64,000 bases of DNA from assembly GCA_965206645.1 (NCBI GenBank), contig CBDBKE010000004.1:416001-480000 (forward strand), given 5' to 3'. The notes under the pieces were generated by a model. That model saw nothing but the letters and a program-made list of their open reading frames with translations. It had not been told where the DNA came from and did no database searches. Below are positions 3,351 through 35,855 of the stretch, piece by piece. How positions within the stretch are numbered: position 1 is the stretch's first letter; each line of letters begins with the position of its first letter. Both the position numbers and the translations under genes were made by a program. This DNA is from Terriglobia bacterium. Its GTDB lineage: Bacteria > Acidobacteriota > Terriglobia > JAJPHL01 > JAPKYU01.

Positions 3351-3389
3351 CCAGAACGGATTGTAACATGCCGGCCAATTGGTGCTACT

Positions 3390-4022: not shown

Positions 4023-4057
4023 CGTCCCATTTCCGAAAATCGCTTTATAATCCGGTA

Positions 4058-4534: not shown

Positions 4535-5171
4535 TAATCCCACTTTATTCGGCATAACCATCAGATCGTAACAGGCCTGTTAATTTTCGAGTTAAGACAG
4601 GCGGGAAAACGACCGACCCAAACGTAAATTTTGAGGGGATGGGTGGTAGGAATTACCACCATTAGTGTGCTTTTGCTCAGTATTACGGCGAAAGACTGTT
4701 GCTGGGATAGCAACGATCAATCGCTCAGCGCCTCTCTCAGCCGACGACCGGACCGGGGAAGGCCCAGGGCTCGGCCTGGGCGAGTACGTGGCGCACACGG
4801 CGAATCTAGCCCGCGCCGAATGGCGCATCCACGGCGCGCCGCACGTCCTCCGAGCTCCTAGCCGTTCTCCAGCATGTATGGTTCAAGCTTCAGCCATTTG
4901 ATGGATTCTAAGCACTTAAATGGGAATCTTCATTCTCATCATCTGGCACTTCCACGAGAAAACTCTACCAGCAGCAAGATAGAAATACCTACTCGGCTTG
5001 GACTGAAAGCTCTGCGGGAGAGACAGTTCTGCCGAGTCCGGTGCAACTCATGCTCTTTCAGAGACTTGCATTACCGGCCCCTCTAGCGGGACAAGTGGAG
5101 AGTTTAACATCCCGATTCTGGGCCAGGCCTTGCACGAGGCGTGCTTAAGGCCCGTCAGCATTTCTCGGCCG

Positions 5172-5801: not shown

Positions 5802-5988
5802 CGCGTCCGATGCACGGTAAGAGTCCCCTTATCCCCTCTTCCGGGTAGTTTCCCACCTATCCAGGCGGGTCAGGCCGCCTCCTCAACCATGCTCCGCAAC
5901 TTCGTGCCCTTGTACTTGCCCCAGCACGTGGGACATGGCCCGTACTTCTCAGCCTGGGGTGGCGGCGATTCCCGCTACGATGAATGAG

Positions 5989-7647: not shown

Positions 7648-7729
7648 TTTATACCTACTTCGCCAGTGCGCCGTACCGGCTCGCCCGCGCTCCCCAGACC
7701 CAGAGCCAGACCTAAAGCCAGACCTCAAG

Positions 7730-8641
7730 TTAATCGCCGGCGCTCGACTCTTCGGCCTTCACACGCACCTGCGCTCCGGCCCAATCCTCGATGAGGGTAA
7801 TGGCCGACGCGTAGTCCTCCTCGCCGTGGCCGCGGGCAATGGAAGCGCCGAATAACTGGTGCACCACGGCCAGCCCCGGCAGCGGCACGCCCAATTCCTG
7901 GCCCGATTCCAGCATCAGCGAGAGGTCCTTGTGCATCCATTTCAAGGAGAAATTGGTGCTCCAATTCCCCTGAAACACCGCGTTCTTCTTGTACTGGTAG
8001 ATGCTGGCCTGAGCCGCGCTGTTCTGAACGATCTCGAACATCAGCTCAAGCGGAACGCCCGCCTTGGCCGCCAGCACAAAGCCCTCGCACATACCGTGGT
8101 AAGTCAAGGCCAGTACCAGATTCTGGGAAAGCTTGGCGTGCAGGCCCATACCGTTAGCGCCGACGTAGTACAGGTTCTTTCCCATCGGCAGGAAATACTC
8201 GCGGACGCGATCAAACACGGCGCGGTCGCCGCCAATCATAAACGTCAGAGTCCCCTTTTCGGCGCCCGCCTTGCTGCCGGTGCAGGGAGCGTCGAGAAAA
8301 TGCGCTCCCCGGGCGGCGAACTCGGCCGCCACGCGGCGGCTCACCGAGGGCGAAATCGTGCTGCAATCCACCACCGTGGCGCCTTTGCGAATGCCGTGGA
8401 GGAGGCCCTGCGGGCCGACCGTCATATCTTGCAAGTGGTCGGAATTCCCCACGCAGAGGAACACCAGTTCACACTTGGCCGCTAAATCGGCTGGTGAGGT
8501 CGCCACCTGGGCACCCTCTTTCCCCAGTTGCTTGGCTTTCTTCAGGGTGTGGCTGAAGACGGTCAGTGGGTGCTTCGCCGCCAGCAGCTGTCGCGCCATA
8601 GGCATGCCCATGATGCCCAAACCGATGAATCCCAGTTGCAT
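7730..8641 (-). CDS. Beta-hydroxyacid dehydrogenase (2-hydroxy-3-oxopropionate reductase-like)
   Basis: GFIGLGIMG, DCSTISP, FLDAPCTGS, KDL; next to glycerate kinase. Confidence 0.85.
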   Translation of the reverse strand: MQLGFIGLGIMGMPMARQLLAAKHPLTVFSHTLKKAKQLGKEGAQVATSPADLAAKCELVFLCVGNSDHLQDMTVGPQGLLHGIRKGATVVDCSTISPSVSRRVAAEFAARGAHFLDAPCTGSKAGAEKGTLTFMIGGDRAVFDRVREYFLPMGKNLYYVGANGMGLHAKLSQNLVLALTYHGMCEGFVLAAKAGVPLELMFEIVQNSAAQASIYQYKKNAVFQGNWSTNFSLKWMHKDLSLMLESGQELGVPLPGLAVVHQLFGASIARGHGEEDYASAITLIEDWAGAQVRVKAEESSAGD

Positions 8642-19229: not shown

Positions 19230-20509
19230 TGACCTGCCTGGCGATTTCCGGACCAGCTGAAGCCTGAGAGAATGGCGCCCTCGGAGAAACGAGGGAGCCA
19301 TGAAGAAGACCCGGTTTACCGAAGAGCAGATGGTGACGATCCTCCGCGAGGCCGATCAGCGGCCCGTTCCGGAGGTGGCCAAAAAGAACGGCGTCAGCGC
19401 CCAGACGCTCTACGCCTGGCGGAAACACTTCGGCACGTTGGAGCCCGCCGATGTGAAGCGGCTGCGGCAGCTCGAGCAGGAGAACGGCCGGCTGAAAAAG
19501 ATGGTGGCCGATCGAGATCTGGAGATCGACGTGCTCAAGGAGATCACCCGAAAAAAATGGTAGGCGCACGCGTGCGCCGGCCGCAGGTCGCGTATGCACG
19601 TGCACGCGGTCTGTCGGGTCGCCGCGCGTGCGCCTTGCTCTCCGTCGCACGGTCCACGCTGGGCTACCAGTCGCGGCTGGTCGACCGGGATGCCCCGGCG
19701 CTGGCCGCGATGCGTCGTCTGGCGGCGCAGTATCCGCGGTACGGCTATCGCCGGATTCGGATTTTCCTAAAACGCGAAGGGCACACGATGAGCACGGACC
19801 GGACCCATCGCCTCTGGCGCCAGGCGGGGTTGCAGGTGCCTCGGCGGCGGCCGCGGCGCCGGGTCGCCCTGAGCCGGCCCCGCCCGGTGCCCGCCACTGC
19901 GGTCAATCACGTCTGGGCGTACGACTTCGTGTTCGACACCTGCGCGAATGGGCAGACGCTCAAGTGCCTCACCGTCGTCGACGAATGGACCCGCGAGTCA
20001 CTCGCGATCGACGTGGCCGGCGGCATTCGGTCCGGGCGCGTTATCGAGGTGCTCACGCAGCTCGTGAGCGTCCACGGAGCCCCACGTTACCTCCGGTCCG
20101 ACAACGGCCCCGAGTTTGTCGCGGGTGCGATTCTCCGGTGGCTGCTCCAGGCGCAGATCGAAACCGCGCTCATCGAGCCGGGGAAGCCGTGGCAGAATGC
20201 GACCGACGAATCGTTCAACGGGAAGTTCCGCGACGAGTATCTGAGCCTGCAGTGGTTTCGGAACCGCGTGGACGCGAAGGTGGGGATCGAGCAATGGCGA
20301 CGGCACTACAACGACGTGCGACCGCACTCGAGCCTTGGCTATCTGACGCCAGCCGAGTTCAAAGCGCAGCTCCGTGCTGGCTCGGATGACGGTGGGCGCT
20401 CGCCGGCGATGCCGGCTCACGCTGACCAAGAAGAACACGAGAGCGACTTAACCATGCCGACTGGCGCTGTTCTCCAGTAATCGGTGGTCCGAAGAAAGCC
20501 GGCAGGTCA
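19230..20509 (+). mobile_element. IS3-family element (OrfA 19300..19563; OrfB to 20480 via -1 frameshift)
   Basis: TG...CA ends with IR TGACCTGCC..GGACCA; A7 slippery site near 19551; WAYDF, SDNGPEF, ESFNGKFRDE. Confidence 0.93.
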
Positions 20510-20796: not shown

Positions 20797-23700
20797 TCAG
20801 TCGCTGAGCAAATACTGAGTCACCAACGCACGTGTGATGGCTTCACCGCGTCCGGAAAGCTTTCGAACGTTTTCTTCCGACATTGCGGAGAAGTCGGTCG
20901 GGTAATGGATCACTTCCTCACGATCCACCCAGTTGGCGGATTTCAGAGGTACACGACGATCGATCTGTCCGAGACCTGCGTAGACAAACCCGTCAAGTCG
21001 CCCGAATTTCGCGTGATCGTGAAGCCGCTGTTTGGTAGCGTCCTGGACTTTGCGCATGACTGCGGACATGACCTGGGTCATTCGTTTTGTCCAACTGATG
21101 GGCACCCCCTTGCCGGTGAATTGCCCGGCGCCGGCGTCGCTCGCGATGATGATGTCGGGGTTGTAACTGATTGCGCTTACCTCGAGATCTCGGCCAGGCT
21201 CCATCACACTCACGCCTAGATTCTCGAACACGCCCCCGTCGGTGACTATCACGCGGCATGTATCGGTTTGCCCGTTTCTCTCCAAAGACTTCGTCCAGTC
21301 GAACGGCGGAAGGAATGGCGGGTAGGCGGCCGTGGCCGTCACCGCGTCGGCGACCCGGAGTTCGCTCGCCGGTGCCCAGCCGTATCTCCAAGTGCCGAAG
21401 CGTTCGTTGCTCATACGGAATGCAGTGCCGGTTCGGAGCTCACAAGCGTTGAAGACGATCGCCTTGCCTTGGCGCGTGGGCGCATCGCAGTTCTGAGTGC
21501 CGACTACGCCAGCGATCGCGTCGGCAAGGACGTGTGTCCGCGAATAGCGATGTCGGAGTGGCCACGACCAGCGCGAGACGAGGTTGCTGGCACTGCGAAT
21601 CCCGGGAAAGAATGTGGAGACCAGATTTGCGATCCAGGTCATCAAGTCGGTGGCCAACGTTGGCAGAGCGACGACAGCAAAGTTCCACAGGAGCGAACCG
21701 AGGCGTGCGGGATGCAGGAGTTTTTTCAGCGCAGGTCTTACCAGACCGCGATGAAGGAATTTGACAGCGCTGTCATCGATTTCGGAGAACGCAGCTTCGG
21801 TATAGCCGACTAGGGCAGTCATGACCGAGCCGCCCGACACGCCGGATATCACATCGACCTCATCGAGTAACTTGAGGTCTTCGAGCGCACGCAATGTGCC
21901 AAGATGAAATGCGACGGCACGCGATCCGCCGCCGGATAGCGACAGCCCAATCTTCTTGTCGAGTGCCGCCACCGGAGGCGGAGTCGTAACACCGCCTCGT
22001 GCCCCGATTGTGATCTCCATTCCGTTTCGGTGCGCGGCCAATTCTCTCTTTTCGAACGCGTAAGCCCCAATTTGCGGCTTCTGTTCGGCGGCATGCCCGA
22101 CGATCACCATCAGCTGGAGGGCACCGTCGTCGGGTCCAGCCGCAAAAATGGTGGCGATGCCTTCGTAGTCCGTGGCGCTAGGCGTTGCTGGGCTGACCGG
22201 ATGGGAATGCCAGGTTCCGACGTAACGCACGATCCGGTGGGTGCGTTCTTCGTAGTCCTTGCACAGAGCTCTTGTGCCGTGGGTTCCGCAGCGGAAGAGC
22301 TCGGCGGAAAACGTGCTGTCCTGCGGCGGCCCACTGACGTTGGTCACCCATACGATTCCGAGGGTCTCGTCGAACTGTCCGAACAGTAGACCACCCGTTT
22401 CCTGTTCCGCGGATCGTTCTCGGGCCCCCGCGCGTATCCAGCCGATCATATCCCGCCAGACATTCGCCGACATCCGGAAGTCGAGCCCGTCCGCGACCCA
22501 CCGAATGTCCGGGCGAAACCTAAAACGCTGTTCACGAATATCGGGCGACTGGCAGATGAGAAAACCGCTGGCGATGTCACCAGCGTCGTCAAGCGCCTCG
22601 GCCAATGCATTGAGCGCCCGCGCCGAAAGGACGGCCACGTCGGCGTGCGATGCGACGAAGGTGGGATCGGAACATCCGGGTTCTGGCTGCCGGAGACCTT
22701 CGATAGCGTCAGACGTCCAGAAGGCCTTCGCCCACTCGCCGAGCCAGTCACGGTTCACGGCCGCAAGGCCTAGGCGGCGGAACATGTCGAGGGGTCCAGC
22801 TCGGTATCCGGACGGAGCGACGACTGCGACAGCGTGCTGCGCGGTGGCGCTGATCATCACCGAAGCGATTGGAATCTGCCGCTCGTGTTCCTTGAGTACC
22901 GCCTCAAGCTTGCTTCTAACACGGAGTGACGCGGTCGCATCGACCACGACGTCGATATCCGCGTCCCAATCGGTCCTGGTCAGGGTCTGGAAGACAATGT
23001 CCTCGATTCTCGCAAAAACTTTGACGTTTGGTGCGATCGATTGCACCCGACTGGCGAGTGCCGTGGCCTTTGGCTCGTTAGTGTCCGCAGCGGAAAAGTT
23101 CTGGCGAACCAGCACGCCCGGGGTTACGTGGTTTCGGTCGTAAAGCGTGAGTTCTGCGATTCCCGCTCGAGCGAGGTGCTCTGCAATGAGTGAGCCTATT
23201 GCTCCGCAGCCCCAAAGCGCCACCCGTTTTCCGCGAAACCAGTCCATCGCCGTGCCTTCGTCTCGCCGGGTTACGATCTCGGGACGGTTCTCAATCACAG
23301 AGCACCACCTTACACGTGCCTCGTTCCTCCATCTGATCAAGGTTTCGAAAACAGAGTTGATCAACGCTTGGAATTCTTCCGGGGTGTCTTCTCTCCTGTA
23401 GTGGTTGCTGAATTGGCAGGCGATCGAGGCTGCGCGCAGCTTGGCGACATCGTGCCCTTCGATTTCCCAAAATGTGAGGTGTTGGTGTCGTTGCGTGACG
23501 TCGCCGGCGACGCCTCGTGCAGGCGCACCGATCGCGACGTACAACGGGGCGCCCTTGGTGACACGCTCCGAGGCCAGCATCAGGTGAGCAAGCAGCCGAT
23601 AGCCCAGGGCACCTTTGCTTTCCAGGTGGTGGAGCAGGTGATGGACCATTCGGGGGTATTCGAACGGAAGCTCGAAGTTCAGCAAGACCGTGGGCGCGAA

Positions 23701-24297
23701 CAACACATCGTTCTGCAAATGTTGTACGGGCACCCACGCATTGACCTCAAGAAGGCCGGGCTTCGGCTGGTCGAGCACTGCGGCTCCGAACCATGGCCAA
23801 GTATCGCGGCCCGGCGTGTCGGCGTTCACACAGATCGATGTCAAGGCCACCGTATAGGCAACGGGCGGGTGCAAAGGACCTTCGGGATGGTCGAGTTCGT
23901 TGCGGGCTCCACGTCGAAACCACTCGTCGAGCTGCGCCAGGAATCCGAACATGCCTTGAGACGGGATCCACTGGGTGTCGAGGGATTGATACAGGCATAG
24001 GTGGCTTCCCCACTGAACGTGACCAAAGCCGTGGAATCGGGTGTGGGCAGTGTCGGCAGATGGCGGACTGAATGGGAAATCTGCCGGCACCCATAGCGTG
24101 ATGCCTTCGCGGTCGTGGAGCTGCAGACCGTCATCGACATGCTCGTGACGGGAGCAATCGAGCGTGATGTCGACGCCTAAAGAAGCACCCTGGTCGACGC
24201 TCTCTTCAACACCGATGATCTGAACCGGGGATCGATCGGTACCTGCTATGCGTCGCAGCTGGTCTAGCGCGGTCCGTTGGCCTTCACTAAGCGCCAC
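20797..24297 (-). CDS. E2-E1(ThiF)-JAB-patatin fusion protein
   Basis: E2-like HVQWGSHLCLY; E1 WGCGAIGS, DVVVDAT, PEPGCSDP; JAB ETGG...WHSHPVSPATPSATD; patatin LSGGGSR, GVSGG, DGG; probable GTG start at 24297 overlapping the upstream stop. Confidence 0.88.
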   Translation of the reverse strand: MALSEGQRTALDQLRRIAGTDRSPVQIIGVEESVDQGASLGVDITLDCSRHEHVDDGLQLHDREGITLWVPADFPFSPPSADTAHTRFHGFGHVQWGSHLCLYQSLDTQWIPSQGMFGFLAQLDEWFRRGARNELDHPEGPLHPPVAYTVALTSICVNADTPGRDTWPWFGAAVLDQPKPGLLEVNAWVPVQHLQNDVLFAPTVLLNFELPFEYPRMVHHLLHHLESKGALGYRLLAHLMLASERVTKGAPLYVAIGAPARGVAGDVTQRHQHLTFWEIEGHDVAKLRAASIACQFSNHYRREDTPEEFQALINSVFETLIRWRNEARVRWCSVIENRPEIVTRRDEGTAMDWFRGKRVALWGCGAIGSLIAEHLARAGIAELTLYDRNHVTPGVLVRQNFSAADTNEPKATALASRVQSIAPNVKVFARIEDIVFQTLTRTDWDADIDVVVDATASLRVRSKLEAVLKEHERQIPIASVMISATAQHAVAVVAPSGYRAGPLDMFRRLGLAAVNRDWLGEWAKAFWTSDAIEGLRQPEPGCSDPTFVASHADVAVLSARALNALAEALDDAGDIASGFLICQSPDIREQRFRFRPDIRWVADGLDFRMSANVWRDMIGWIRAGARERSAEQETGGLLFGQFDETLGIVWVTNVSGPPQDSTFSAELFRCGTHGTRALCKDYEERTHRIVRYVGTWHSHPVSPATPSATDYEGIATIFAAGPDDGALQLMVIVGHAAEQKPQIGAYAFEKRELAAHRNGMEITIGARGGVTTPPPVAALDKKIGLSLSGGGSRAVAFHLGTLRALEDLKLLDEVDVISGVSGGSVMTALVGYTEAAFSEIDDSAVKFLHRGLVRPALKKLLHPARLGSLLWNFAVVALPTLATDLMTWIANLVSTFFPGIRSASNLVSRWSWPLRHRYSRTHVLADAIAGVVGTQNCDAPTRQGKAIVFNACELRTGTAFRMSNERFGTWRYGWAPASELRVADAVTATAAYPPFLPPFDWTKSLERNGQTDTCRVIVTDGGVFENLGVSVMEPGRDLEVSAISYNPDIIIASDAGAGQFTGKGVPISWTKRMTQVMSAVMRKVQDATKQRLHDHAKFGRLDGFVYAGLGQIDRRVPLKSANWVDREEVIHYPTDFSAMSEENVRKLSGRGEAITRALVTQYLLSD

Positions 24298-25444
24298 GAC
24301 CGAATCCAACTGCCGTTGCAGGCGCGACGGCGGCGCCACTGGCAGCCTTCAGCGCGTCGCTCATCGACTTGCTGGATTCGCTCTTGCCGACATAGGCGAA
24401 CCCTGTCTCGCTGACCTCGAAGATGATTGGCTCGGGGTTCCTCTTGTCCGGATGTTCCTGGGTGCACATGAACTCGTTAGGGACGATGCGCTGATACTGT
24501 CGCTTCGCCTTGGCGTGTGGTGGATTATCACCTGGTTCGTTGCTCGCCGGCACAGGGTCCGAGCTCGAGACAACATATCCGGGATTGAGGGCAGCGTTGC
24601 CAATGTCACGCACGATGTCAGATTTCAGCGTCTCCTCGTCGCCGTCCTCGTCTTTCCAGTACATCACTGACTTCGAGCAATGATGGGGTGCGAGCAGGAC
24701 GTTCCAGGCCCGCTTTGCGGCTTTACTGCGGTCGAAGATTCGTCGGATGATCGGATAGCTAAGGTCTCCCATGAGCAGCGCTCGGCCGACGCCGGATTCG
24801 TTATAGAGGGAGATCTGGAAGGCAAGGCTACAATCGTTCCGGTCGCCGAAGCTGTCGTCCTTGAACGGGGCGTGCACAAACGCCTCAAATGCATTGGGGA
24901 CGTCCTCACCGTCCAAAGTTGTGATGGTTTGGCCCGGAATGGACAGGAATTCTTTGGGAAAGCCTTTGAAATCGGGCTCCTTGAGCAGGTCGTCGTAGCC
25001 GATGATGCGAATTCGACGGCCTCGTCCGGGATCGCCGCCAGCGTCTATGCCCACCTTAACACGTCGCATCGCCTCGTCGTGGAAGGCTTGCGCGTCTTCG
25101 CAGAGGTCGTTGTTCTCGCGGAATTCGCGGAACGTGCGCGGCGACATCCAGAGCTCGGAGATGATCACGCGGTCGTTCAGCTCCTCAAAGCCCTGGCAGT
25201 GGTCCAGATCGGGATGCGTGAGCGCGAATACCGACAGATACGGCTTGCCGCGAAGTTTCGGCAGAACCTTGATCAACTCGTCGATTACCGGCCAAGCTGG
25301 GTCGTCGTCCTCTTCGGACTTGGCCATGTGCCGCATGTCGACCTGTAGGTACACCGTCTCGGACACGCGAACGGTCGTGCTGTCGCCAGTGCCGACCGGC
25401 CAGAAGATGAAGCCTCGGGCAGGAGAGTAGATCATATTGAGCAA
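24287..25444 (-). CDS. ComEC/Rec2-type metallo-beta-lactamase-fold protein with a ubiquitin-like C-terminal tail
   Basis: PVGTGDS, THPDLDH, MGD and PHHCS motifs; ends in low-complexity AAVAPATAVGFGRGA. Confidence 0.85.
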   Translation of the reverse strand: MLNMIYSPARGFIFWPVGTGDSTTVRVSETVYLQVDMRHMAKSEEDDDPAWPVIDELIKVLPKLRGKPYLSVFALTHPDLDHCQGFEELNDRVIISELWMSPRTFREFRENNDLCEDAQAFHDEAMRRVKVGIDAGGDPGRGRRIRIIGYDDLLKEPDFKGFPKEFLSIPGQTITTLDGEDVPNAFEAFVHAPFKDDSFGDRNDCSLAFQISLYNESGVGRALLMGDLSYPIIRRIFDRSKAAKRAWNVLLAPHHCSKSVMYWKDEDGDEETLKSDIVRDIGNAALNPGYVVSSSDPVPASNEPGDNPPHAKAKRQYQRIVPNEFMCTQEHPDKRNPEPIIFEVSETGFAYVGKSESSKSMSDALKAASGAAVAPATAVGFGRGA

Positions 25445-25662
25445 CCCCTTATGCTATACTAGCACATGTTGGGGTCGGTTGGAAGTGCGAGGGTTTCAGT
25501 ACATGCGAGGTGAGCTCTGGGGAAATAACCGGCTCACCGTCAAAAAGCTCAGCCTTGAGCGGCCGCCGTTCTGACCTGCATGTCTCGACGTGACGAGTGC
25601 TGCGACGGGGCGAATAGGCACTTGCGATGCAGTTTCCGGATCTTTGAGACAGCCTCTTCACC

Positions 25663-26070
25663 TTGCTTCTAAGGGCCTTTACCAACCATGGTGTGGGATA
25701 CTTGCTTATCGGAAGCATGGCCAAGTCCCATTACTCCCGTCGGCGCGAGCCGCTAGGCGAAATGGACCTGCTGATTAATCCCAAGCCCGAGAATGCAAGA
25801 AGGGTAGAGTCCGCTTTCCGGGAGCGAAATTATCATCAGCTGTTGCAGCTCGAACTGGAATAACTTGCCCTCCCAAATCAACAACACGCAATTTTCGACT
25901 GCGGCGTCCGCGTCGGCGTGTTCTTTCTCTTAAGCCGAATTTTAGTTTGTGTAAAGCCTTCTCCCGCTTAGAGACAGAGGTCGTTGACAGCATAAGTGTG
26001 CGGGTCGCATCTGAATGTGATTTGGAAACGCTCGACTCACTGAGAGAACAGAGCGCACGAGCACGTTGAA
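25663..26070 (+). pseudogene. Decayed nucleotidyltransferase-like gene
   Basis: GVGYLLIGSMA...EMDLLINPKPENA followed by an in-frame stop. Confidence 0.45.
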
Positions 26071-26129: not shown

Positions 26130-26867
26130 GATCGCTCGTGACCGTGTCGGAATAGTGGTATCGGAAGATTTTGGTGTTGCTGCATCAGGAAGGCTGGCCG
26201 GTGGGCAAGTCTCTGGTGAGGCGATTGTATCGGGAAGAAGGACTGACGCTGCGACGGATGGTGCCAATGAAACGCCGGGTGGCAGTGGAACGAACAGAGA
26301 GAATTAAACCCAGCGGACTGAACCAGGTGTGGAGTCTGGACTTTCTGGCGGAGCAGTTGGCCGATGGCAGGTGATTCCGAGCATTGACGGTGGTGGATGT
26401 ATTCGCGCGGGAAAGCCTAGCGGTCGAGCCGAGACAGAGTCTGATAGGGGGAGACGTGGTCCGAGTGCTGCAGCGGATTCAGAAAGACCGTGGGGCGCCG
26501 AAGGCGCTGTTCTGCGACAATGGATTGGAGTTCACGAGCCAGGTGATGGACTTCTGGGCGTACCGGAACGGAGTGAAGATCGACTTTTCACGCCCGGGAA
26601 AGCCGACCGACAACGGGCACATTGAGTCGTTCAACGGAACGTTCCGGGACGAGTGTCTGAACACACATTGGTTCCCGACGCTCGGGGATGCCAGGGAGAT
26701 CATCGCAGCATGGCGAAGGGAGTACAATGAGAGTCGTCCTCACAGGGCCCTGAGGGAGAAGAGGCCGTACGAATTTGCTCATCAAATCGCGGCTCGCCGC
26801 GATTTGATGGGTTCGAAAAAACCGCAATACTCACCTTGAAGTTGGTACGAAATCTCGGGACCCCTCA
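26130..26867 (+). mobile_element. IS3-family OrfB remnant
   Basis: VWSLDF, internal TGA at 26372, CDNGLEF, ESFNGTFRDECLN; terminal ...CCCCTCA. Confidence 0.85.
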
Positions 26868-27054: not shown

Positions 27055-27173
27055 GGTGTTGTCAAGTTGAGGCTGACGGGTGTTTCTGATGCCCAGCATG
27101 GCGCGTTCAAGACGGGCTGGAGCCCAGTATCCTGGGGGTCGATCGACTAGCTTTTCGTCAACTTGACAATGCC
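27055..27173. mobile_element. 119-bp IS6-derived miniature element
   Basis: GGTGTTGTCAAGTT ... AACTTGACAATGCC inverted ends, similar to the IS6 end at 63308. Confidence 0.7.
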
Positions 27174-27854
27174 GGCGACGGCGTTCTCGTTTAGAGGGAC
27201 GGCGTGCTGCATGAGGCTCTCGAAATATCGCATCGAGAACTGGACCTGGGTCGGCCAGAGGACACGCTGGCGGGCGTCCTGCGGGGTCCAAAGCTCCAAG
27301 CCCTCAATGACTGTTCCCTTGATGGTGACGGACCGGCCGTCTTTGCTGGCACCGAGGCGGAAATCCGCGGCGGCCAGCCGGTTGAGCTGTTCTTTGACGG
27401 TCTTGATGGTGCGCCCGCCCACGTCGAGGCCGAGGGTGCGCTTCACGAAAGCCGTGAGGCTGTCTTCGAGCTCAATGTTGGGCGATTGCGTGCGCAGGGC
27501 CTCGGCGTTCAGGTGGTAGAGGACAAGCCGGGGTTTCGGCCCGAAGGGCAGGCCCACGTCCACGAAATCCTCGGTTGTCGGATCGAGGAGACGACCGGCC
27601 TGAAGCTCCAGCCGGACCATGCCGTTCTTGCGCTGCCATAGCCGCACGGCTTCGCCGGGGTCGCGGTAAGGCATGCAGGTCTGGCACAGGACGGAATGCT
27701 GGTAGAGGATCGATTGGGCTTCCTCGTCCTGGAGAGGCATCGAAATGAGCCGTTCATGAATCCGGGAAAGCGGTTTGTGCTCGGGCTTGATGATGGCGGG
27801 AAAAAGGTCGCCGATGCGCTGCATCCCTTTTGCGGTTTTGTCGTCTATCGGCAC
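27174..27854 (-). pseudogene. repA: Plasmid replication initiator RepA (IncW-like RepA_C family), C-terminally truncated
   Basis: HSVLCQTCMPYRDP, GLPFGPKPRL, LWPTQVQFSMRYF; cut by the IS6-type end. Confidence 0.8.
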
Positions 27855-27890
27855 TTCCCTGCCCTCCTTTCGCTAATTTGCTAAGTTTCG

Positions 27891-28145
27891 CTAATTAGCC
27901 GCCGTTTTTCTTCCCTGCTGCTTTTCCCATGAGTCCACGGCCCGCTTGAGGAGCTGGATGTTTTTGAGCTGTGCGTCGAGTGCGAGGCGCTTGAATTTTT
28001 GCCTGAATTCTGGAGGCACCTTGAAATTGAGATCGACGAGCGTTTCCTTGGTGCTCTGCCCCCGCTGGAGTGAACCCGATACCGCAGTGGGGCTCCCTTT
28101 GGTTGCGAGCAAGGTACCGGCGTTGATCGCTGATGGTTTAGGCAT
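27891..28145 (-). CDS. Small partition protein (ParG-like ribbon-helix-helix)
   Basis: Overlaps parA; LNFKVPPEFRQKFK strand-helix pattern. Confidence 0.65.
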   Translation of the reverse strand: MPKPSAINAGTLLATKGSPTAVSGSLQRGQSTKETLVDLNFKVPPEFRQKFKRLALDAQLKNIQLLKRAVDSWEKQQGRKTAAN

Positions 28146-28824
28146 GTACTTTGACTCTCTTCTGGGTATTCGCTAATTCGCTATTGTTCGCTAATTCGCC
28201 TATGCGTTTCTTGGTGAACCGCCAGAGTTCGGCGATTTCCGCGGCGGCGGGGCTGCTTGGATTGATCTCTGGGGCGGTGCGGCCATCGGTCATCGAGGAG
28301 GCATAGTCCACCCGGTCATGCACGACGGATTGGAACACCTGCCCGTGCTGGGAAAGCGCCGCGATGGTCTGGACGGTGATCCGGGCGTTGGCCTTGGCCT
28401 GGGTCAGCACAAAGGCGAAAGGCGTCTCTGATTCCTTGACCAGGTCAAGCGTAGCCCCCAGGGACCAGAGGTCGTTGGGGCTCGGGCGTGTCGGGATCAG
28501 CACCAGGTCGGCGCGCTTGAGCACTTGCCGGTTCTGTTCGGTGAGCGCGGGCGGCGTGTCGATAAAGCAGGAGGCGAAGCCCGCCTCAGCCAAGGTCTGG
28601 AGCTTTTCAGGAAGTTCGCGGAGGTTGACGGGCGCAAGCTTGGGGCTTTCTGCTTCGCGGAGGTTCCACCAGGTGGCCAGTGTTTGTTGGGGATCGGTAT
28701 CAATGAGCACGGCGGGACCGTTCTTGGCGTGCTCTGCGGCCACGGCCAGGTGCGCCGCGAGGGTGGTCTTGCCGCTGCCTCCCTTCTGGGACGTGATCAC
28801 GACTATTTTCATTGGCATCGCCAT
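28138..28824 (-). CDS. parA: ParA-family partition ATPase
   Basis: SQKGGSGKTT, IDTDPQ, IDTPP, LVLIPTRPSPND. Confidence 0.92.
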   Translation of the reverse strand: MAMPMKIVVITSQKGGSGKTTLAAHLAVAAEHAKNGPAVLIDTDPQQTLATWWNLREAESPKLAPVNLRELPEKLQTLAEAGFASCFIDTPPALTEQNRQVLKRADLVLIPTRPSPNDLWSLGATLDLVKESETPFAFVLTQAKANARITVQTIAALSQHGQVFQSVVHDRVDYASSMTDGRTAPEINPSSPAAAEIAELWRFTKKRIGELANNSELANTQKRVKVHA

Positions 28825-31175: not shown

Positions 31176-32833
31176 CCGGAATTTCCATTTTGAGCTTCCC
31201 CTTCACCCGAAAAGCTATGCCTCGTACCCTGTCGTGTCAACCGCAAACAGCTCTGGCCTCTTTGAGGTGGTAGTGCGGCACATTTTGGCTGTTCTTCGGA
31301 GTCGCTGTGCGGGTTTCGCCTGCCCAGCCTGCCTCGCCGCTGACACTTATCCGGCCCGACCACTTCTGAGCACCTAAAATTACCCTCTCTCCCGGTTCGC
31401 TAGCCATCCGGCAGCGGCAGCGCCGCGATCATTCTCAGCATGCTGCCAAAACGCTGCCGTGTGAGGTGCCCCTCGGCCAATAGCAGCCAGTAATAGCGCG
31501 CATGTTTCACCAGCCGTCCGCCGGTCTTGACCAAGCGCTGCTGCAAACTGGTTAGCGACCAACTCTTGATCCTCTGCGGCAGTGCCAAACGTCGCCACAG
31601 GTTTCCCAGATTATAGGCGATCACACTGAGCCCAAGCCGCACCTGGTTAGACCGGAACCGGTGGCAGCTCAGCCGCGTCATCTTCACCGCCTGCTTGCCT
31701 TCCTTGATCCACTGTTCGGCAGTGCCCCGCTTGTTGTAAAAACGCACCACCGCCCGACTTGGCAGAGTCAAGTTCGTCACGATGAATCCTACTCGCGGGA
31801 ACAGCTCCCCTGGGTGATGCTCCACCCTGGCCACCACCCTGCGTGCTGTCTTCCAGCTGGCCGCTTGGTATAGAAAGCCCTTGAACTCCACCAACGGCTT
31901 CTTGCTGGGTCTCCCCACCGGCCGAGTCAGCAACTCCTCAATGTCCCGCTGTAGGCTGTCGTTAGCCGGGATGCGGATGGCGTACTTTACCTCCCGCTCC
32001 TCCAGAGCCTCGTAAATCTCCGGCTTGGCAAAGGCCGCGTCGGCACGAAACACCACTTCCTTGCCCAGCTGCTGCTGCCGCTCGATCTCCGGCAGGAGAA
32101 GTTCTTTCCAGTCCTCGGCGCTGTGCACGTTGCCCGGTCGCAGCTTGGCCGCCAGACAGTCACCCTCGCGATTGAACAGCAACAACGGGTGATAGCAGCT
32201 CGACTCGAAATGCCCGTTGTAGGCACTCTGCTCCTGCTGGCCGTAGACCGGAATCTCGGTCGAGTCCATGTCCAGCACCACCCGTTGCGGGGAATCCATA
32301 GCTTCCGCCCTGGCGATTAAATCCCGGTTGATCGCTGCCAAACCAGCCAGGTTCTCATCTTGCGTCAGTAGTTCTGTCTCGAACGATTGCAGCCGGGAAG
32401 TCAACGCGGCTCCTCGCTCCCAGATCTTTTCTGAACCGATCAGCCGGAACGTCGGATCTTGAGAGAGCCGTTCCGCGTCATTCATATCTTCGTAACCCGC
32501 CAAGCGGCTGTACACGGACTGGCGCAGGAGGTCAGCAAAGGGCAACCGTGTGTTCTTTCCCCGAGGATCGGCCAAGTGCTGTTTGATGAGTTCCCCGAAT
32601 CCCAAATGTTCGTCTAATTCGCGCACGAGGATCAGGCCGCCGTCGGAAGTAACCCGCGACCCCTGGAAATAGACCTTCAATGCAGCATTGAAAGAGAACT
32701 GAAAGGGCTGATTTTGCCTCTCACCCACTGGGTTTCTACCTCCGGAAGCTGTATTGACGCTGGAACCGGCATAAATATTGGCGTCGGAGGTCAGTATAAG
32801 GTTAGCTTTGGAGTTTCAAAACGGAAATCCGGG
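31176..32833 (-). mobile_element. IS1380-family element (transposase 31400..32728)
   Basis: IRs CCGGAATTTCC / CCCGGATTTCC; 5-bp target duplication CTTAG; close homolog of the element at 5989. Confidence 0.95.
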
Positions 32834-32847: not shown

Positions 32848-33519
32848 TCAATGGCGGATACAGACTATTCCACCGCATCCCGAAGAGTTCATGGCCTTCG
32901 ACAAGCGACGGGTTTCAAAATCCAGCAGCAACGCGTCATCCTGCGTGATCTGGCGGGCATGCATGGTGTCCACACGCACCGGGTACATCCTTCGGAAAGA
33001 TTCGCGTACATTCTCCTTTCGATCGAAGATCGGCGAAAAGACATGCCAGTTGTCACGCTTGCACATCACCTGAACATAGTCGGTGAAGTCTGCATAGGCG
33101 ATCAGGGCATCTTCTCCTCGCCCACCCTGTTGCGCTTTTTGCTTCTTCTCTTTCCACTGGAGGTACATTCCGTTTGGCAACTGGTGTTTCGGCCAGTCGG
33201 AACCGTAGCATGCTGTCATCCGTTCATCGATGCAACGCCGCAACTGCGTTTCCAGCCCAGCAATCCGGACATACGCCATGGGGGCACGGCCTTCCTCTTT
33301 GTGGTCCAGCGGCTTGTCCCCACGCAGATCGGCGATATCTAGGCTTTTTTCGAAGGCCGGGGCAGAAAAATCCGGTCGCGCGCCCTTTAATCCACGGCTC
33401 ACATAGAAATCTGCGCGTTCGCCATAATCCGTGAGTATCTTTCTCGGCCAGGCGATCCGGTTCTGATCTTGCACCGCCGCCTCCGGCGTCGGGTTCACTA
33501 GCAGCGTTTTTTCAGTCAT
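32848..33519 (-). CDS. Swt1-family HEPN domain protein
   Basis: LETQLRRCI...YGSDW, YADFTDY, DNW..F and RVDTMH (R-x4-H); GGAGG RBS upstream of ATG 33519. Confidence 0.7.
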   Translation of the reverse strand: MTEKTLLVNPTPEAAVQDQNRIAWPRKILTDYGERADFYVSRGLKGARPDFSAPAFEKSLDIADLRGDKPLDHKEEGRAPMAYVRIAGLETQLRRCIDERMTACYGSDWPKHQLPNGMYLQWKEKKQKAQQGGRGEDALIAYADFTDYVQVMCKRDNWHVFSPIFDRKENVRESFRRMYPVRVDTMHARQITQDDALLLDFETRRLSKAMNSSGCGGIVCIRH

Positions 33520-33654
33520 CTTTTCCTCCAAAGTTTTTCCTGAGTGCTGTGGTGTTGACGTGGTTCTAAGGTGCGGGAACCGTTCACCCGACAGCGGGAA
33601 TTCATCCCTGAGTGAAGCAGTATTGACATGGTTTTGATGTCCCCCGTCCCCGCC

Positions 33655-34620
33655 CCATAAATACTTTCTGACCGCGCCGCGTTCGGCCGTGGCGCCCGCG
33701 CTGTAGTGGGCGACCATGCGCGACGTGCGCCAGTTCCCGGCCAACATGACTTCGGTTGTTGACGCGCCGCGCGCCGTCAGTTCGGACGCGAGCCCGACCC
33801 GGCCACTGTGCGCCGTCAAGCGCGCCTCGATGCCGGCGGCGTGGGCGGCAGCGGTGAACCGGCGCTGAATCTGCAACGGCGACAACCCGACCACCCGATC
33901 CGTGGGTGCGGCGTCGGGCCGGTCGGCGCGGACGGTGCGGATCGCTTTCGCGCCGCCGTTCTTCAGATACCGCACGTCGGCGGCGTCCCCCTCTTGATTC
34001 GTTTTCGAGGTCCGCACGGTGAGCAGCACGCCGTCGCCGTCGCTGGCGTCCGTCACGTCGGCCCAGCGCAAGGCGGCGACTTCCGACCGCCGCAGCCCGC
34101 CCATGAACAACAGCGAGGCGATCACGGCGTCGAGTCGGCCCCGGCGTTGCGCCGTGGTGTGGGATTCGACGCCCCGGCCGTCAGTGCGGGGACGGTCGGC
34201 GGTGGCGAGAATCGCGGCGAGCCCGTCCGCGCGCAGCGGGGCGGCCTGGCCCCGGCCCCGGTCGGCGGCCGTGCGACGGTAGCCGCCCAACACGCGGGCG
34301 GTCGCTTCCCCGGCGGGGTCCGGCTGGCCGGCGAGCTTGGCCCGAAACCGGACGGCGGCGACGGCGAGGGCGGCGGTTGCGGGCGCGCGGCCCGCCTCGA
34401 AGAGCTCGCCGAGGTAGACGGCCAGCAAGGGGTCGTCAACCGGGGCGGTCCCCCGCCATGCGTCCAGGCGCGCCAGCGCGCCGGCGTAGGCCAGTCGGGT
34501 GTTGCGGCTGATAGAGGCGTCGGCGAGCTGGCGCGTGGTCGGCGTGGCGACGGCCAGCGGCCCCGCCGTGTCGGGGCGTCGGGCGAGCGCGGCGGGTTCG
34601 GCCTGTGTTGTTTGAAGCAT
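33655..34620 (-). CDS. Cre-like tyrosine recombinase, copy 1; stop lost, in frame with the HEPN gene
   Basis: LRRSE, SKT, HSGR, GNW and AHY catalytic residues; TGG where copy 2 has TAG. Confidence 0.88.
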
Positions 34621-34626
34621 AATATC

Positions 34627-35855
34627 GGTGGTCTCAACCCATCGACGCAACACTTTGCCTTGAAAGGAGGAGGTGGAGTGTATGCGGATGAAGCAAAGAG
34701 CTCGTCGCGGTTACACGCTGGCGGAACTGGAGGAGGTGTGGGATCGGTGGAAACGAGGGGAGTCGCTCAAGTCGATTGGACGAGTGTTTTGTAAGCAGCC
34801 ATCGTCTGTTTACCATCAGCTTGCTCCGTACGGAGGCATCCGTCCTCGGCCACCACGCCGTTCATGTTGGGCACTGACGTTGTCGGAGCGCGAAGAGATC
34901 TCTCGAGGCATTGCGGCACATCAATCGATACGATCCATCGCCGGGTTGCTGGGTCGCTCACCATCGACGGTGAGCCGGGAGATTCGGCGGAATGGCGGCG
35001 ATAATGACTATCGAGCAGCGGAGGCCGATGAGCAAGCCGGGGAGAGGGCCCGCCGGCCGAAGCGGTGTCAGCTGGTCAAGCATCCACAACTACGACGGGT
35101 AGTGGCCAGAAAGCTCAGCATAAACTGGTCGCCTGAGCAGATCGCCAGCTGGCTGAAACGAGCCTATCCGAAGGATCCGTCCTATCACGTGTCTCACGAG
35201 ACCATCTACCGCAGCCTGTTTGTTCAAGCCCGCGGTGCGCTGAAGGCAGAGCTGATGCAGCATCTGCGGTCAAAGCGGACGATTCGTCGATCCCGACATG
35301 CAAGTCTGAGAGGCCATGGACGAGGACAGATCACCGACATCGTATCGATCCGTGAGCGCCCGGCCTCGGTCGAAGATCGTGCCGTGCCCGGTCATTGGGA
35401 AGGCGATCTGCTGTCCGGATCGAAGAACAGCCACATTGCGACTCTGGTCGAACGTCATACGCGCTACGTGATGCTTACGAAAGTATCCAGCAAGAAAACG
35501 GAGACGGTCGTGTCGGCGCTCATCAAGCACGCGAAGAAGCTGCCGACGGAACTGTACAAATCTCTGACTTGGGATCGAGGCCTGGAGCTCGCCGAGCATC
35601 GACGGTTCACGTTGGCGACCGACATTGACGTATACTTCTGTGATCCTCAGAGTCCATGGCAGCGCGGTTCGAATGAGAACACCAACGGTCTACTCCGACA
35701 GTACTTCCCCAAGGGAACGGACTTGTCGGTGCACTCTCAGGCGCATCTGAACAAGGTGGCACGTCAGCTGAACGAACGGCCCCGTCAGACGCTGGAGTTT
35801 GAAACTCCGGCAGAACGATTTAACGCTTGTGTTGCATCGACCGGTTGAGCTGGCA
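34627..35855 (+). mobile_element. IS30-family element (transposase 34673..35848)
   Basis: IRs CTCAACCCATCGACGCAACAC / CTCAACCGGTCGATGCAACAC; 2-bp TC duplication; GHWEGDL, WDRG, SPWQRGSNENTNGLLRQYFPKG. Confidence 0.95.

What the first reader, a model, noticed from the sequence alone, without database searches (positions are those of the whole stretch)
20797..25444. Cyclase-free ubiquitin-like defence operon: MBL protein plus a single E2-E1-JAB-patatin fusion
Seen: two overlapping genes. The second carries apparently intact E2 (LCLY), E1 (GCGAIG, PEPGC), JAB (E...HxH-x7-S-x2-D) and patatin (GGGxR, GxSxG, DGG) motifs in one continuous frame. Established: these correspond to type II CBASS Cap2 (E2-E1), Cap3 (JAB) and the CapV-type phospholipase fold, and MBL + E2/E1/JAB operons lacking a cyclase are already known. 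Inference: the fused phospholipase adds a membrane-damaging effector, possibly controlled by conjugation or deconjugation of the MBL protein instead of a cyclic nucleotide. I do not know this four-domain architecture as a characterised system, but could not check that. Its location in a tRNA island alongside RM systems fits antiphage defence.
Basis: partly seen in the sequence, partly recalled or inferred. Interest (0 to 1): 0.92.

Follow-up and report, generated by a model that had tools for sequence, protein, structure and literature searches.

The report
6A-MBL phage defence with fused phospholipase
These two genes are a copy of an already named bacterial anti-virus system (6A-MBL) in which the ubiquitin-type ligase has a membrane-cutting phospholipase fused to its end, a common but apparently undescribed variant.

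Summary

It is not a new kind of system. Both proteins pass NCBIfam's curated cut-offs for the named anti-phage "6A-MBL" system, which is operon type 6a of Iyer et al. 2006.

The patatin domain is the unusual part, and the fusion is real.
- All 120 best protein clusters listed carry it, and 34 of 151 representatives are full-length fusions.
- All 31 full-length genomic loci, from many phyla, have the MBL gene upstream.
- Sister operons encode patatin as a separate gene, and fused and unfused forms interleave on the tree.

The MBL protein has a disordered tail with a conserved VGFG motif. It is predicted to dock on the E2 domain.

My reading is that E1/E2 conjugate the MBL enzyme through that tail, JAB trims or reverses this, and patatin is a second, membrane-directed effector.

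I found no tRNA in the window. I found no paper that links patatin to 6A-MBL; the key 2024 paper was not held. This scan has noted the same variant before, on other DNA.

The parts
24287..25435 (-). MBL-fold partner gene of the 6A-MBL system (382 aa from ATG 25435; the longest ORF starts 3 codons upstream at TTG 25444)
   Evidence: NF058524 '6A-MBL system MBL-fold protein' scores 293.6 bits against a cut-off of 220. The HxDxDH motif (H74, D76, D78, H79), H188, D224 and H251-H252 are invariant in 17 homologs. The AF2 model has pLDDT 80.9. The best fold match is the ComEC MBL domain 9ic4, E 6.1e-11.
24290..24382 (-). Coding region of the disordered C-terminal tail of the MBL protein (residues 352-382). 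The conserved V-G-F-G lies at residues 376-379 (GFG codons 24299-24307) and is followed by R-G-A and the stop.
   Evidence: pLDDT is below 50 for residues 352-382. GFG is present near the end in 28 of 30 homolog loci, the other 2 being truncated ORFs, and 2 ORFs end exactly at GFG. G379 is invariant, and G377 and F378 are at least 90% conserved. The motif is also kept in the Streptomyces and Rhodococcus plasmid operons.
20797..24339 (-). Cap2_3-patatin fusion gene (1180 aa from GTG 24339; probable true start GTG 24297, giving 1166 aa)
   Evidence: NF058523 '6A-MBL system cap2_3 protein' scores 360.2 bits against a cut-off of 320, over residues 72-746. Four Pfam domains are found. The full-length AF2 model has pLDDT 83.4 and pTM 0.77.
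23815..24204 (-). E2-like domain (residues 46-175; catalytic C115 at 23995-23997, H107)
   Evidence: PF14457 scores 68.9 bits. C115 is kept in 34 of 34 fused and 68 of 68 unfused representatives. The predicted MBL docking surface lies within residues 27-138.
22834..23235 (-). E1 adenylation domain (Pfam residues 369-502). The catalytic-Cys loop RQPEPGC556SDPTF lies further on, with the C556 codon at 22672-22674.
   Evidence: PF00899 scores 75.4 bits. G377, G379, R412, D467 and C556 are kept in 34 of 34 fused representatives. Residues 547-559 are low-confidence in the model, as expected for a mobile loop.
22096..22422 (-). JAB/JAMM metallopeptidase domain (residues 640-748)
   Evidence: PF14464 scores 38.8 bits. 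PADLOC JAB models score up to 72.1 bits. E647, H711, H713, S721 and D724 are kept in all 113 fused, unfused and 'other' representatives counted.
20800..21945 (-). Patatin-like phospholipase domain (residues 799-1180; Ser835-Asp1034 dyad, GGGSR oxyanion motif)
   Evidence: PF01734 scores 70.1 bits. G803, G804, R807, S835 and D1034 are kept in 34 of 34 fused representatives. The fold resembles CBASS CapE, 9ion_B. ESM Atlas neighbours are stand-alone patatins of 391-398 aa.

Best explanation
This is a two-gene anti-phage operon of the 6A-MBL family, with a patatin phospholipase fused to the C-terminus of the E2-E1-JAB protein. In sister operons that phospholipase is a separate third gene.

Shown here: family membership, intact catalytic sites in all five enzyme modules, strict MBL-fusion gene linkage across phyla, a disordered MBL tail with a conserved VGFG motif, and sporadic distribution in a region rich in mobile elements.

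Inferred mechanism, by analogy with type II CBASS Cap2/Cap3:
1. The JAB domain trims the few residues after VGFG (R-G-A here) to expose a C-terminal glycine.
2. The E1 domain adenylates that glycine and takes it as a thioester on C556.
3. The thioester passes to C115 of the E2 domain and is ligated to an amine on an unknown target, which activates or localises the ComEC-like MBL hydrolase, a probable nuclease or phosphodiesterase.
4. JAB also reverses the conjugate, keeping the system off in uninfected cells.
5. The patatin domain is a second effector. Being tethered to the ligase, it hydrolyses membrane phospholipid when the system fires, without a nucleotide second messenger.

How firing is coupled to patatin activity is not known.
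For: Family and integrity:
- Both proteins exceed the NCBIfam equivalog cut-offs for 6A-MBL.
- The catalytic residues of E2, E1, JAB and patatin are kept in 34 of 34 fused representatives. The MBL metal-binding motifs are invariant in 17 homologs.

The fusion is real:
- 120 of the 120 best clusters listed carry ThiF, JAB and Patatin in one protein, and 114 of the 120 also carry Prok-E2_A.
- Among the best 150 HMMER representatives plus the query, 34 are full core plus patatin.

Gene linkage:
- 31 of 31 genomic loci with a full-length fusion have an MBL match upstream on the same strand. 27 of those are full-length and abut the fusion gene.
- These loci come from Gemmatimonadota, Acidobacteriota, Alpha- and Gammaproteobacteria, cyanobacteria, Bdellovibrionales, Binatia, Dadabacteria, Verrucomicrobiota and others.

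Patatin is a functional partner rather than an accident:
- Split operons with a separate patatin gene occur on Streptomyces, Rhodococcus, Roseomonas and Bradyrhizobium plasmids and in genomes G203 and G116.
- Fused and unfused states interleave on the core-domain tree. At least 23 changes are needed, and at least 15 are forced by well-supported branches.

MBL as the substrate of the ligase:
- The tail (residues 352-382) is disordered.
- GFG followed by 0-14 residues is found in 28 of 30 loci, and 2 ORFs end exactly at GFG.
- More distant family members end in PHG, PHGG or RAG, or in RAGNE.
- The predicted complex of MBL with fusion residues 1-610 scores ipSAE 0.79, against 0.00 for the best of 3 controls. 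The mark was reached by 58 of 80 solved complexes and 2 of 110 mismatched pairs. The three runs agree in at least 91% of contacts, and the partner's pLDDT is at least 84. A related Cap2-CD-NTase complex is solved, so part of this score may reflect likeness to that structure.
- Ye et al. 2024 (bioRxiv 10.1101/2024.11.21.623953, Discussion passages read) state that the type II CBASS, Pycsar and MBL pathways use the E2-E1 fusion to conjugate their enzymes.

Defence context:
- Only 1 of 61 related genomes, the window's own, has the system, as do 4 of 401 genomes sampled from the phylum.
- IS3-type transposase genes flank the operon, and RepA/ParA, integrase and RM genes lie in the window.
- A 2025 preprint lists 6A-MBL among known jumbo-phage defences (10.1101/2025.09.30.679545, passages read).
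Against: - No biochemical or phage test exists for this protein or, as far as I could find, for any patatin-bearing member.
- The paper that validated 6A-MBL (van den Berg et al. 2024, Cell Host Microbe) was not held. I therefore do not know which architecture was tested or what mechanism it reports.
- Three of six intact systems sampled have no patatin within about 10 kb (G288, G541, G486). Patatin is therefore dispensable for the core mechanism.
- The predicted interface puts the MBL body on the E2 domain, not its tail in the E1 adenylation site.
- The patatin domain is only remotely like the CBASS phospholipase models (20.8 bits), and nothing shows how it is switched on.
- No sigma-70-like promoter was found by the simple scan.
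- The conjugation target is unknown.
Confidence: 0.6

Rival explanations
1. CBASS-like signalling logic. The MBL enzyme takes the place of the cyclase. Once primed by conjugation it makes a small-molecule signal, for example a nucleotide-derived product of a phosphodiesterase reaction, that switches on the patatin effector. The MBL would then be a sensor and signal generator rather than a nuclease effector.
For: The operon layout parallels type II CBASS: a conjugated enzyme, then E2-E1, JAB and a patatin effector. Ye et al. 2024 call the conjugated proteins 'signaling enzymes'. MBL-fold relatives include phosphodiesterases, and 7dck appears among the fold matches. The patatin fold resembles the cyclic-nucleotide-activated CapE.
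Against: Three of six intact systems sampled have MBL and Cap2_3 but no patatin or other recognisable effector nearby, so there the MBL must itself be the effector. Pfam found no ligand-sensing domain in the fusion. The best fold match of the MBL is the ComEC nuclease domain.
Confidence: 0.12
2. Lipid-directed conjugation. Like Atg7/Atg3 attaching Atg8 to phosphatidylethanolamine, the E1/E2 module attaches the MBL tail glycine to a membrane lipid amine. The patatin domain would serve to bind, prepare or later release that lipid anchor, placing a ComEC-like nuclease at the membrane where phage DNA enters.
For: Cap2-type E2-E1 fusions are described as related to Atg7, and an Atg7-Atg10 complex is among the fold matches (4gsk_B). 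The lipid-acting domain is covalently tethered to the ligase. Residues about 874-922 of the patatin domain form a hydrophobic helical hairpin. The MBL's best structural match, ComEC, acts at the membrane.
Against: This is purely an analogy. The targets of bacterial Cap2 are reported as unknown. The hydrophobic stretch stays below a usual transmembrane threshold, with a highest 19-residue Kyte-Doolittle mean of 1.47. Patatin-less systems exist.
Confidence: 0.08
3. The operon does not act against phages. It would instead be a mobile-element conflict or addiction module, for example plasmid or IS maintenance or exclusion of other elements, that uses the same enzymes.
For: It sits between IS3-type transposase genes and next to RepA_C and ParA genes. 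Relatives lie on conjugative and mobilizable plasmids next to relaxase and T4SS genes. One relative lies on a predicted viral contig.
Against: The family is curated by NCBI as anti-phage and cited as validated against phages. Defence systems are typically carried on such elements, so the context does not discriminate between the two readings.
Confidence: 0.1
4. An inactive relic. The operon would be a decaying passenger of an IS-rich island and would no longer function.
For: The island is full of transposases and truncated genes. Disrupted copies exist elsewhere: L025 is split by a roughly 4.8 kb insertion, G359 is cut by three integrase genes, and L001, L012, L026 and L029 have broken MBL genes.
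Against: Both frames are open, and every catalytic residue examined matches the family consensus. Short contigs from three metatranscriptome libraries match parts of both genes at 99% or more, though DNA carry-over cannot be excluded.
Confidence: 0.03

Closest known systems
6A-MBL anti-phage system (operon type 6a of Iyer, Burroughs & Aravind 2006, PMC1779556; NCBIfam NF058523 and NF058524; cited as validated by van den Berg et al. 2024, not read)
   Same: An MBL-fold gene lies directly upstream of a single E2-E1-JAB polypeptide. Both proteins pass the curated cut-offs. The catalytic residues are the same.
   Different: The Cap2_3 protein carries an extra C-terminal patatin domain of about 390 aa, which the 665-position family profile does not cover. 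Row 6a of the 2006 table, as read, describes only the triple-module protein plus MBL.
Type II CBASS (CD-NTase + Cap2 + Cap3 + effector such as the patatin phospholipases CapV/CapE)
   Same: It has a homologous E2-E1 ligase (7TO3) and JAB peptidase. The partner enzyme has a disordered Gly-ended tail. The effector has a patatin fold (9ion_B).
   Different: No CD-NTase was found in the operon or the genome. The conjugated enzyme is an MBL hydrolase. E2-E1, JAB and patatin form one chain. The patatin domain is not a member of the CBASS phospholipase models (20.8 bits). The Cap3 equivalog model scores 24.9 bits against a cut-off of 200.
Three- and four-gene 6A-MBL operons with a separate patatin gene (Streptomyces sp. 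NBC_01220 and Rhodococcus pyridinivorans plasmids; genomes G203 and G116)
   Same: They hold the same modules in the same order. In the two actinobacterial plasmid operons (Streptomyces, Rhodococcus) the MBL tail keeps the GFG motif.
   Different: Patatin, and in Streptomyces also JAB, is a separate gene, often overlapping its neighbour by 4 nt. In the window it is fused.
Atg7/Atg3-Atg8 lipidation and the other bacterial ubiquitin-like pathways (Bil, Bub)
   Same: They use an E1 then E2 cascade acting on a C-terminal glycine, with a JAB peptidase for maturation or reversal.
   Different: There is no separate ubiquitin-like protein gene here. The tail of an enzyme appears to play that part. Bub uses serine oxyesters, whereas this protein keeps both cysteines.
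ComEC metallo-beta-lactamase nuclease domain (PDB 9ic4)
   Same: It is the best structural match of the MBL partner (E 6.1e-11, TM 0.74 on the target), and the MBL partner carries an HxDxDH-type metal motif.
   Different: Identity is only 17%. The MBL partner is a soluble stand-alone protein with a conjugation-type tail. It has no sequence relative in the PDB.

Membership tests
6A-MBL anti-phage system | E2-E1-JAB 'cap2_3' protein reaching the NF058523 equivalog cut-off | tested here: met
   360.2 bits against a cut-off of 320, residues 72-746 on profile positions 6-665
6A-MBL anti-phage system | Specialised MBL-fold protein reaching the NF058524 equivalog cut-off | tested here: met
   293.6 bits against a cut-off of 220, full profile 1-346; one copy in the genome
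6A-MBL anti-phage system | The two genes are adjacent and co-oriented, with MBL first | tested here: met
   The genes overlap by 11 or 53 nt on the minus strand. The same order holds in 31 of 31 full-length homolog loci.
6A-MBL anti-phage system | Catalytic Cys of E2 and E1 and the JAMM motif are intact | tested here: met
   C115, C556, E647, H711, H713, S721 and D724 are present
6A-MBL anti-phage system | Two-component architecture, with a Cap2_3 of about 750-810 aa and no further domain | tested here: not met
   An extra patatin domain occupies residues 799-1180. Unfused family members are about 740-830 aa.
6A-MBL anti-phage system | Protection against phage infection | not testable with these tools
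   This needs cloning and phage challenge. The published test (van den Berg 2024) could not be read.
Type II CBASS | CD-NTase (SMODS) cyclase in the operon | tested here: not met
   PF18144 finds nothing in the whole 97.9%-complete genome. The operon has only two genes.
Type II CBASS | Cap2 (E2-E1) and Cap3 (JAB) proteins | tested here: inconclusive
   The domains are homologous: PADLOC E1-E2 model 257.8 bits, JAB 72.1 bits, and Cap2 7TO3 E 2e-21. The Cap3 equivalog NF050170 scores 24.9 bits against a cut-off of 200.
Type II CBASS | Cyclic-nucleotide-activated effector of the CapV/CapE phospholipase family | tested here: not met
   The best PADLOC phospholipase effector model gives 20.8 bits over 49 residues, and NF053870 gives 26.8 bits against a cut-off of 400. 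Only the fold is alike (9ion_B).
Patatin-like phospholipase (PF01734) | GGGxR oxyanion motif, GxSxG nucleophile, DGG catalytic Asp, and a score above the gathering threshold | tested here: met
   70.1 bits against 27.7. G803-R807, S835 and D1034 are kept in 34 of 34 fused representatives.
Ubl-based bacterial conjugation systems (Bil, Bub) | A separate ubiquitin-like protein gene in the operon | tested here: not met
   The operon has two genes. The only other same-strand ORF nearby (25449-25724, 91 aa) has no Pfam match and lies in a region without coding signal.

The most novel reading that the evidence does not exclude
The patatin-bearing branch of 6A-MBL is a second-messenger-free, two-enzyme attack. 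In it a ubiquitin-type ligase attaches a ComEC-like nuclease by its VGFG tail to a membrane-associated target, possibly a lipid amine as in Atg8-PE, while the tethered phospholipase opens a lipid barrier. That barrier would be either the host membrane or the lipid vesicle that shields early jumbo-phage DNA. 6A-MBL is listed among jumbo-phage defences, so such a lipase-plus-nuclease pair could be a way to reach DNA hidden inside a membrane compartment.
Probability: 0.1. Interest if true: 0.85.

Novelty: new variant of a known kind. Interest (0 to 1): 0.5.

Why it matters
6A-MBL is a validated anti-phage system whose mechanism is barely described in the papers I could read. This variant adds a recognisable effector to it. 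The patatin phospholipase recurs as a fused or neighbouring gene in a large part of the family. That argues the system has a membrane-directed arm that works without any cyclic-nucleotide messenger.

The conserved VGFG tail gives a concrete, mutable handle for testing whether an enzyme itself, and not a ubiquitin-like protein, is the conjugated moiety.

The single-chain form (E2, E1, JAB and lipase in one polypeptide, plus one partner) is a compact object for structural and biochemical work on how bacterial ubiquitin-like ligation is coupled to cell killing or to destruction of the phage.

Tried and rejected
1. RGG cleavage site. An R-G-G at residues 781-783, in the JAB-patatin linker, looked like a ubiquitin-type cleavage site in close homologs. 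It is absent and the linker is variable in the 34 deep fused representatives, so I dropped the idea of JAB releasing the patatin domain there.

2. Composite transposon. IS3-type transposase genes flank the operon (19272-20480, and a truncated one at 26384-26839). No direct or inverted repeats of 25 nt or more link the two sides, so a composite transposon is not shown.

3. tRNA island. No tRNA was found.

4. Alternative fused effectors. The 11 'core+other' representatives were tested in part, 7 of the 11. None had a Pfam domain beyond E2, ThiF and JAB, so there is no evidence of a swappable effector slot. The three 'long' proteins in the same call were patatin fusions.

5. Promoter scan. No sigma-70-like sites were found. 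This is uninformative for an unknown host.

I sampled instead with search_dna_similar and with the genome search plus fetch from genomes. That gave only six intact systems.

7. Literature.
- '6A-MBL' gave 3 papers, 2 of them relevant.
- Searches combining Cap2, patatin, metallo-beta-lactamase, JAB, ThiF and ubiquitin-like gave no paper that links patatin to this system.
- van den Berg 2024 is not held.
- Supplements are closed, so domain-architecture tables in supplements may already list this variant.

8. RNA libraries. Parts of the stretch have no cover in the three RNA runs.

9. PDB by sequence for the MBL. Only a spurious match at E 0.01 was returned.

Full report
WHAT IS THERE

Pfam places four domains in the long protein, all above gathering score:
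- Prok-E2_A, residues 46-175.
- ThiF, residues 369-502.
- Prok-JAB, residues 640-748.
- Patatin, residues 799-1044.

- E2: H107 and C115.
- E1: GCGAIG at 377-382 and PEPGC556.
- JAB: E647, H711-S-H713, S721, D724.
- Patatin: GGGSR at 803-807, GVSGG around S835, and D1034-G-G.

The likely true starts are ATG 25435 for the MBL gene and GTG 24297 for the fusion.
- For the MBL gene, catalogued homologs are 382 aa, and AAGGGG lies 9 nt upstream.
- For the fusion, most homologs are 1166 aa and begin MALSEGQR. Residues 1-14 are modelled with pLDDT below 50.
- With GTG 24297 the genes overlap by 11 nt (GTGGCGCTTAG). With GTG 24339 they overlap by 53 nt.

IDENTITY

NCBIfam gives the answer directly.
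- The long protein scores 360.2 bits (cut-off 320) on NF058523, 'anti-phage 6A-MBL system cap2_3 protein'.
- The short one scores 293.6 bits (cut-off 220) on NF058524, 'anti-phage 6A-MBL system MBL-fold protein'.

The name goes back to row 6a of Table 1 in Iyer, Burroughs and Aravind 2006 (PMC1779556; passages and table row read). [quoted passage not shown]

A 2026 review (PMC13276650, one passage read) credits van den Berg et al. 2024 with confirming antiphage activity in Pseudomonas aeruginosa. A 2025 preprint lists 6A-MBL among 'known jumbo phage defense systems' (10.1101/2025.09.30.679545, passages read). The 2024 paper itself is not held.

The NF058523 profile is 665 positions long and ends at residue 746 of this protein. 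The patatin domain therefore lies outside the family definition.

IS THE FUSION REAL AND COMMON?

Yes.
- In the 5.8-billion-protein catalogue, all 120 best clusters listed (55-100% identity, 911-1187 aa) carry ThiF, JAB and Patatin in one protein. 114 of them also carry the E2 domain.
- An exhaustive HMMER search of 1.84 billion representatives gave 8676 hits at E up to 0.001.
- I classified the best 150 plus the query by local BLAST:

| Class | Count |
|---|---|
| Full core plus patatin | 34 |
| Core only | 68 |
| Core plus extra length | 11 |
| Core plus a cut patatin | 3 |
| Fragments | 35 |

- All 17 catalytic positions I checked are identical in 34 of 34 fused representatives.
- A scan of one genome per species returned 41 loci, 31 of them with a match spanning the whole protein. 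These come from Gemmatimonadota, Acidobacteriota, Alpha- and Gammaproteobacteria, Prochlorococcaceae, Bdellovibrionales, Binatia, Thermodesulfobacteriota, Dadabacteria, Bryobacterales, Chthoniobacter and Pyrinomonadaceae MAGs.
- All 31 have an MBL match upstream on the same strand. 27 are full length and abut the fusion gene. Four (L001, L012, L026, L029) are broken or displaced.

PATATIN IS A PARTNER, FUSED OR NOT

tblastn against plasmids found the same modules as separate genes.
- Streptomyces sp. NBC_01220: hypothetical (MBL), then ThiF (E2-E1), then Mov34 (JAB), then patatin.
- Rhodococcus pyridinivorans: MBL, then an 833-aa ThiF protein (E2-E1-JAB), then patatin.
- Roseomonas and Bradyrhizobium have further versions.

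I then sampled 401 genomes of the window's phylum and 157 of another class. Six intact systems came up:
- One fused: the window itself.
- Two with a separate downstream patatin. In G203 it overlaps Cap2_3 by 4 nt. In G116 it is a 629-aa patatin protein.
- Three with no patatin within about 10 kb: G288, G541 and G486.
- A seventh, G359, is cut by three tandem integrase genes.

On a FastTree of the E2-E1-JAB core (116 rows, patatin columns excluded), fused and unfused proteins interleave. At least 23 changes of state are needed, and at least 15 are forced by branches with 95% support or more. FastTree supports are optimistic and the root is unknown. Even so, many independent fusion or fission events are needed on any reading. 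That fits genes which usually sit next to each other.

THE MBL PARTNER

It has no Pfam hit and no sequence relative in the PDB. An alignment of 17 homologs keeps H74-P-D76-x-D78-H79, H188, D224 and H251-H252 invariant. This is the metal-binding pattern of an active MBL hydrolase; that reading rests on my knowledge of the fold.

The AlphaFold model (pLDDT 80.9, pTM 0.85) best matches the ComEC beta-lactamase-like nuclease domain (9ic4, E 6.1e-11). After that come a phosphorylcholine esterase, RNase J, RNase Z and phosphodiesterases.

The last 31 residues are disordered. They end in ...AVGFG-RGA.
- Across 30 homolog loci, 28 keep GFG followed by 0-14 variable residues. Two ORFs end exactly at GFG. 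The two exceptions are truncated ORFs.
- The motif persists at 43-44% identity in the actinobacterial plasmids: IGFGAA and VGFGR.
- More distant family members end in PHG, PHGG, RAG or RAGNE.

A flexible tail ending in glycine, sometimes with a few removable residues, is what an E1 substrate with a JAB-processed pro-peptide looks like. This agrees with the statement in Ye et al. 2024 that the type II CBASS, Pycsar and MBL pathways conjugate their enzymes.

A complex prediction of the MBL with fusion residues 1-610 scored ipSAE 0.79, against 0.00 for the best of three controls.
- That mark was reached by 58 of 80 solved complexes and by 2 of 110 mismatched pairs.
- The runs agree in at least 91% of contacts, and the partner's pLDDT is at least 84.
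- The interface lies on the E2 domain (residues 27-138). On the MBL it covers residues 272-286, 312-321, the tail helix 353-366, and 374-377.
- A Cap2-CD-NTase complex is in the PDB, so the pass partly reflects likeness to that structure. It supports binding but does not show it.

STRUCTURE OF THE FUSION

The full-length model has pLDDT 83.4 and pTM 0.77. Low-confidence stretches are 1-14, 151-163, the catalytic-cysteine loop 547-559, and the linker 772-775.

Its best PDB matches are Cap2 of Enterobacter cloacae (7TO3, E 1.7e-22), other E1 enzymes, Atg7-Atg10, and, for the C-terminal part, the CBASS phospholipase CapE (9ion_B).

By sequence the patatin domain is far from defence phospholipase models: 20.8 bits on PADLOC and 26.8 bits against a cut-off of 400 on NF053870. 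Its nearest Atlas clusters are stand-alone patatins of 391-398 aa.

Residues about 874-922 form a hydrophobic helical hairpin, with a highest 19-residue hydropathy mean of 1.47. This could touch a membrane.

CONTEXT

The operon is the only one of its kind in the genome. It is missing from the 60 related genomes searched, including 3 of the same genus.

It is flanked by an IS3-type transposase gene (19272-20480) and a truncated one (26384-26839). Beyond these lie:
- RepA_C and ParA genes.
- An integrase-HEPN fusion.
- Several DDE transposases.
- A group II intron.
- An MmeI-like enzyme (44147-46495).
- A type I RM system (53649-59698).

I found no tRNA and no CD-NTase anywhere in the genome. 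One relative sits on a predicted viral contig.

Short contigs from three metatranscriptome libraries of one study match pieces of both genes at 99% or more. One of them spans the gene junction (24235-24387). RNA libraries can hold DNA, so this is only a weak hint of expression.

MECHANISM

Shown:
- Family membership.
- Intact active sites.
- Obligate gene pairing.
- A Gly-ended disordered tail on the MBL protein.
- Recurrent patatin association.

Inferred, by analogy with Cap2/Cap3:
- JAB trims R-G-A from the tail.
- E1 adenylates G379 and forms a thioester on C556.
- E2 C115 passes it to an unknown amine.
- JAB also reverses the conjugate.
- The ComEC-like hydrolase is the primary effector, since half of the sampled systems have nothing else.
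- Patatin is a second, membrane-directed effector.

How ligation is coupled to lipase activity is open. The rivals are that the MBL acts as a signal generator for patatin, that conjugation is to a lipid as with Atg8, that the operon serves mobile-element conflict and not phage defence, and that it is a relic. I give these lower odds for the reasons set out in their entries.

NOVELTY

The system is known and named. I could not find the patatin-bearing branch, or the single-chain form, in the held literature. However, the key paper and all supplements were out of reach.

Earlier agents of this scan reached the same reading on other genomes. Those are unchecked AI notes and not independent evidence, and I had formed my reading before seeing them.

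I rate it a new variant of a known kind, of moderate interest.

Noticed in passing
window 38900-40869: A group II intron. Rfam matches D1-D4 (86.8 bits) and domain V/VI (41.5 bits), and an RT/maturase ORF lies at 39309-40706 (RVT_1 plus GIIM).
   Followed up: partly
window 44147-46495 and 52364-59698: An MmeI-like type IIL methyltransferase/endonuclease gene, and a type I RM operon (hsdR 53649-57053, hsdS 57060-58217, hsdM 58214-59698) next to a tyrosine integrase gene (52364-53329). They lie 19-34 kb from the operon.
   Followed up: partly
window 32848-34653: A 601-aa protein joins a phage-integrase domain to a C-terminal Swt1-like HEPN domain. This is an unusual pairing in an IS-rich stretch.
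   Followed up: no
window 27147-28824: RepA_C and ParA genes lie inside a large chromosomal contig, beside the operon. This looks like the remnant of an integrated plasmid.
   Followed up: no
window 6213-7607 and 31400-32728: Two copies of a DDE_Tnp_1_4 transposase gene (both about 394 bits on PF13701) bracket about 24 kb that includes the operon. I did not check for terminal repeats at that scale.
   Followed up: no
window 20800-21720 (fusion residues about 874-922): A hydrophobic helical hairpin is inserted in the patatin domain (helices 877-910 and 912-922 in the model; highest 19-residue hydropathy mean 1.47). It may be a membrane-contact element.
   Followed up: partly
L025 1-1155 and 6001-7725; L061 (G359) 2812-8329: Homologous operons are hit by mobile DNA. 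In L025 the fusion gene is split by an insertion of about 4.8 kb. In G359 the E2-E1 gene is cut short and followed by three tandem tyrosine-integrase genes.
   Followed up: partly
L065 1-4618 (IMG/VR contig): A full MBL plus fused E2-E1-JAB-patatin operon (38% identity; MBL tail ...VGFGD) lies at the end of a 28.5 kb predicted viral contig.
   Followed up: no
window 24235-24387 and other pieces of 22313-25887: Short contigs from three metatranscriptome libraries of one study match both genes at 99% or more, and one spans the gene junction. This is a weak hint of transcription, because DNA carry-over is not excluded.
   Followed up: partly
L056 6797-9436 (Bradyrhizobium barranii plasmid): A second, 879-aa patatin-family gene lies just downstream of the JAB-patatin pair in that split operon.
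   Followed up: no
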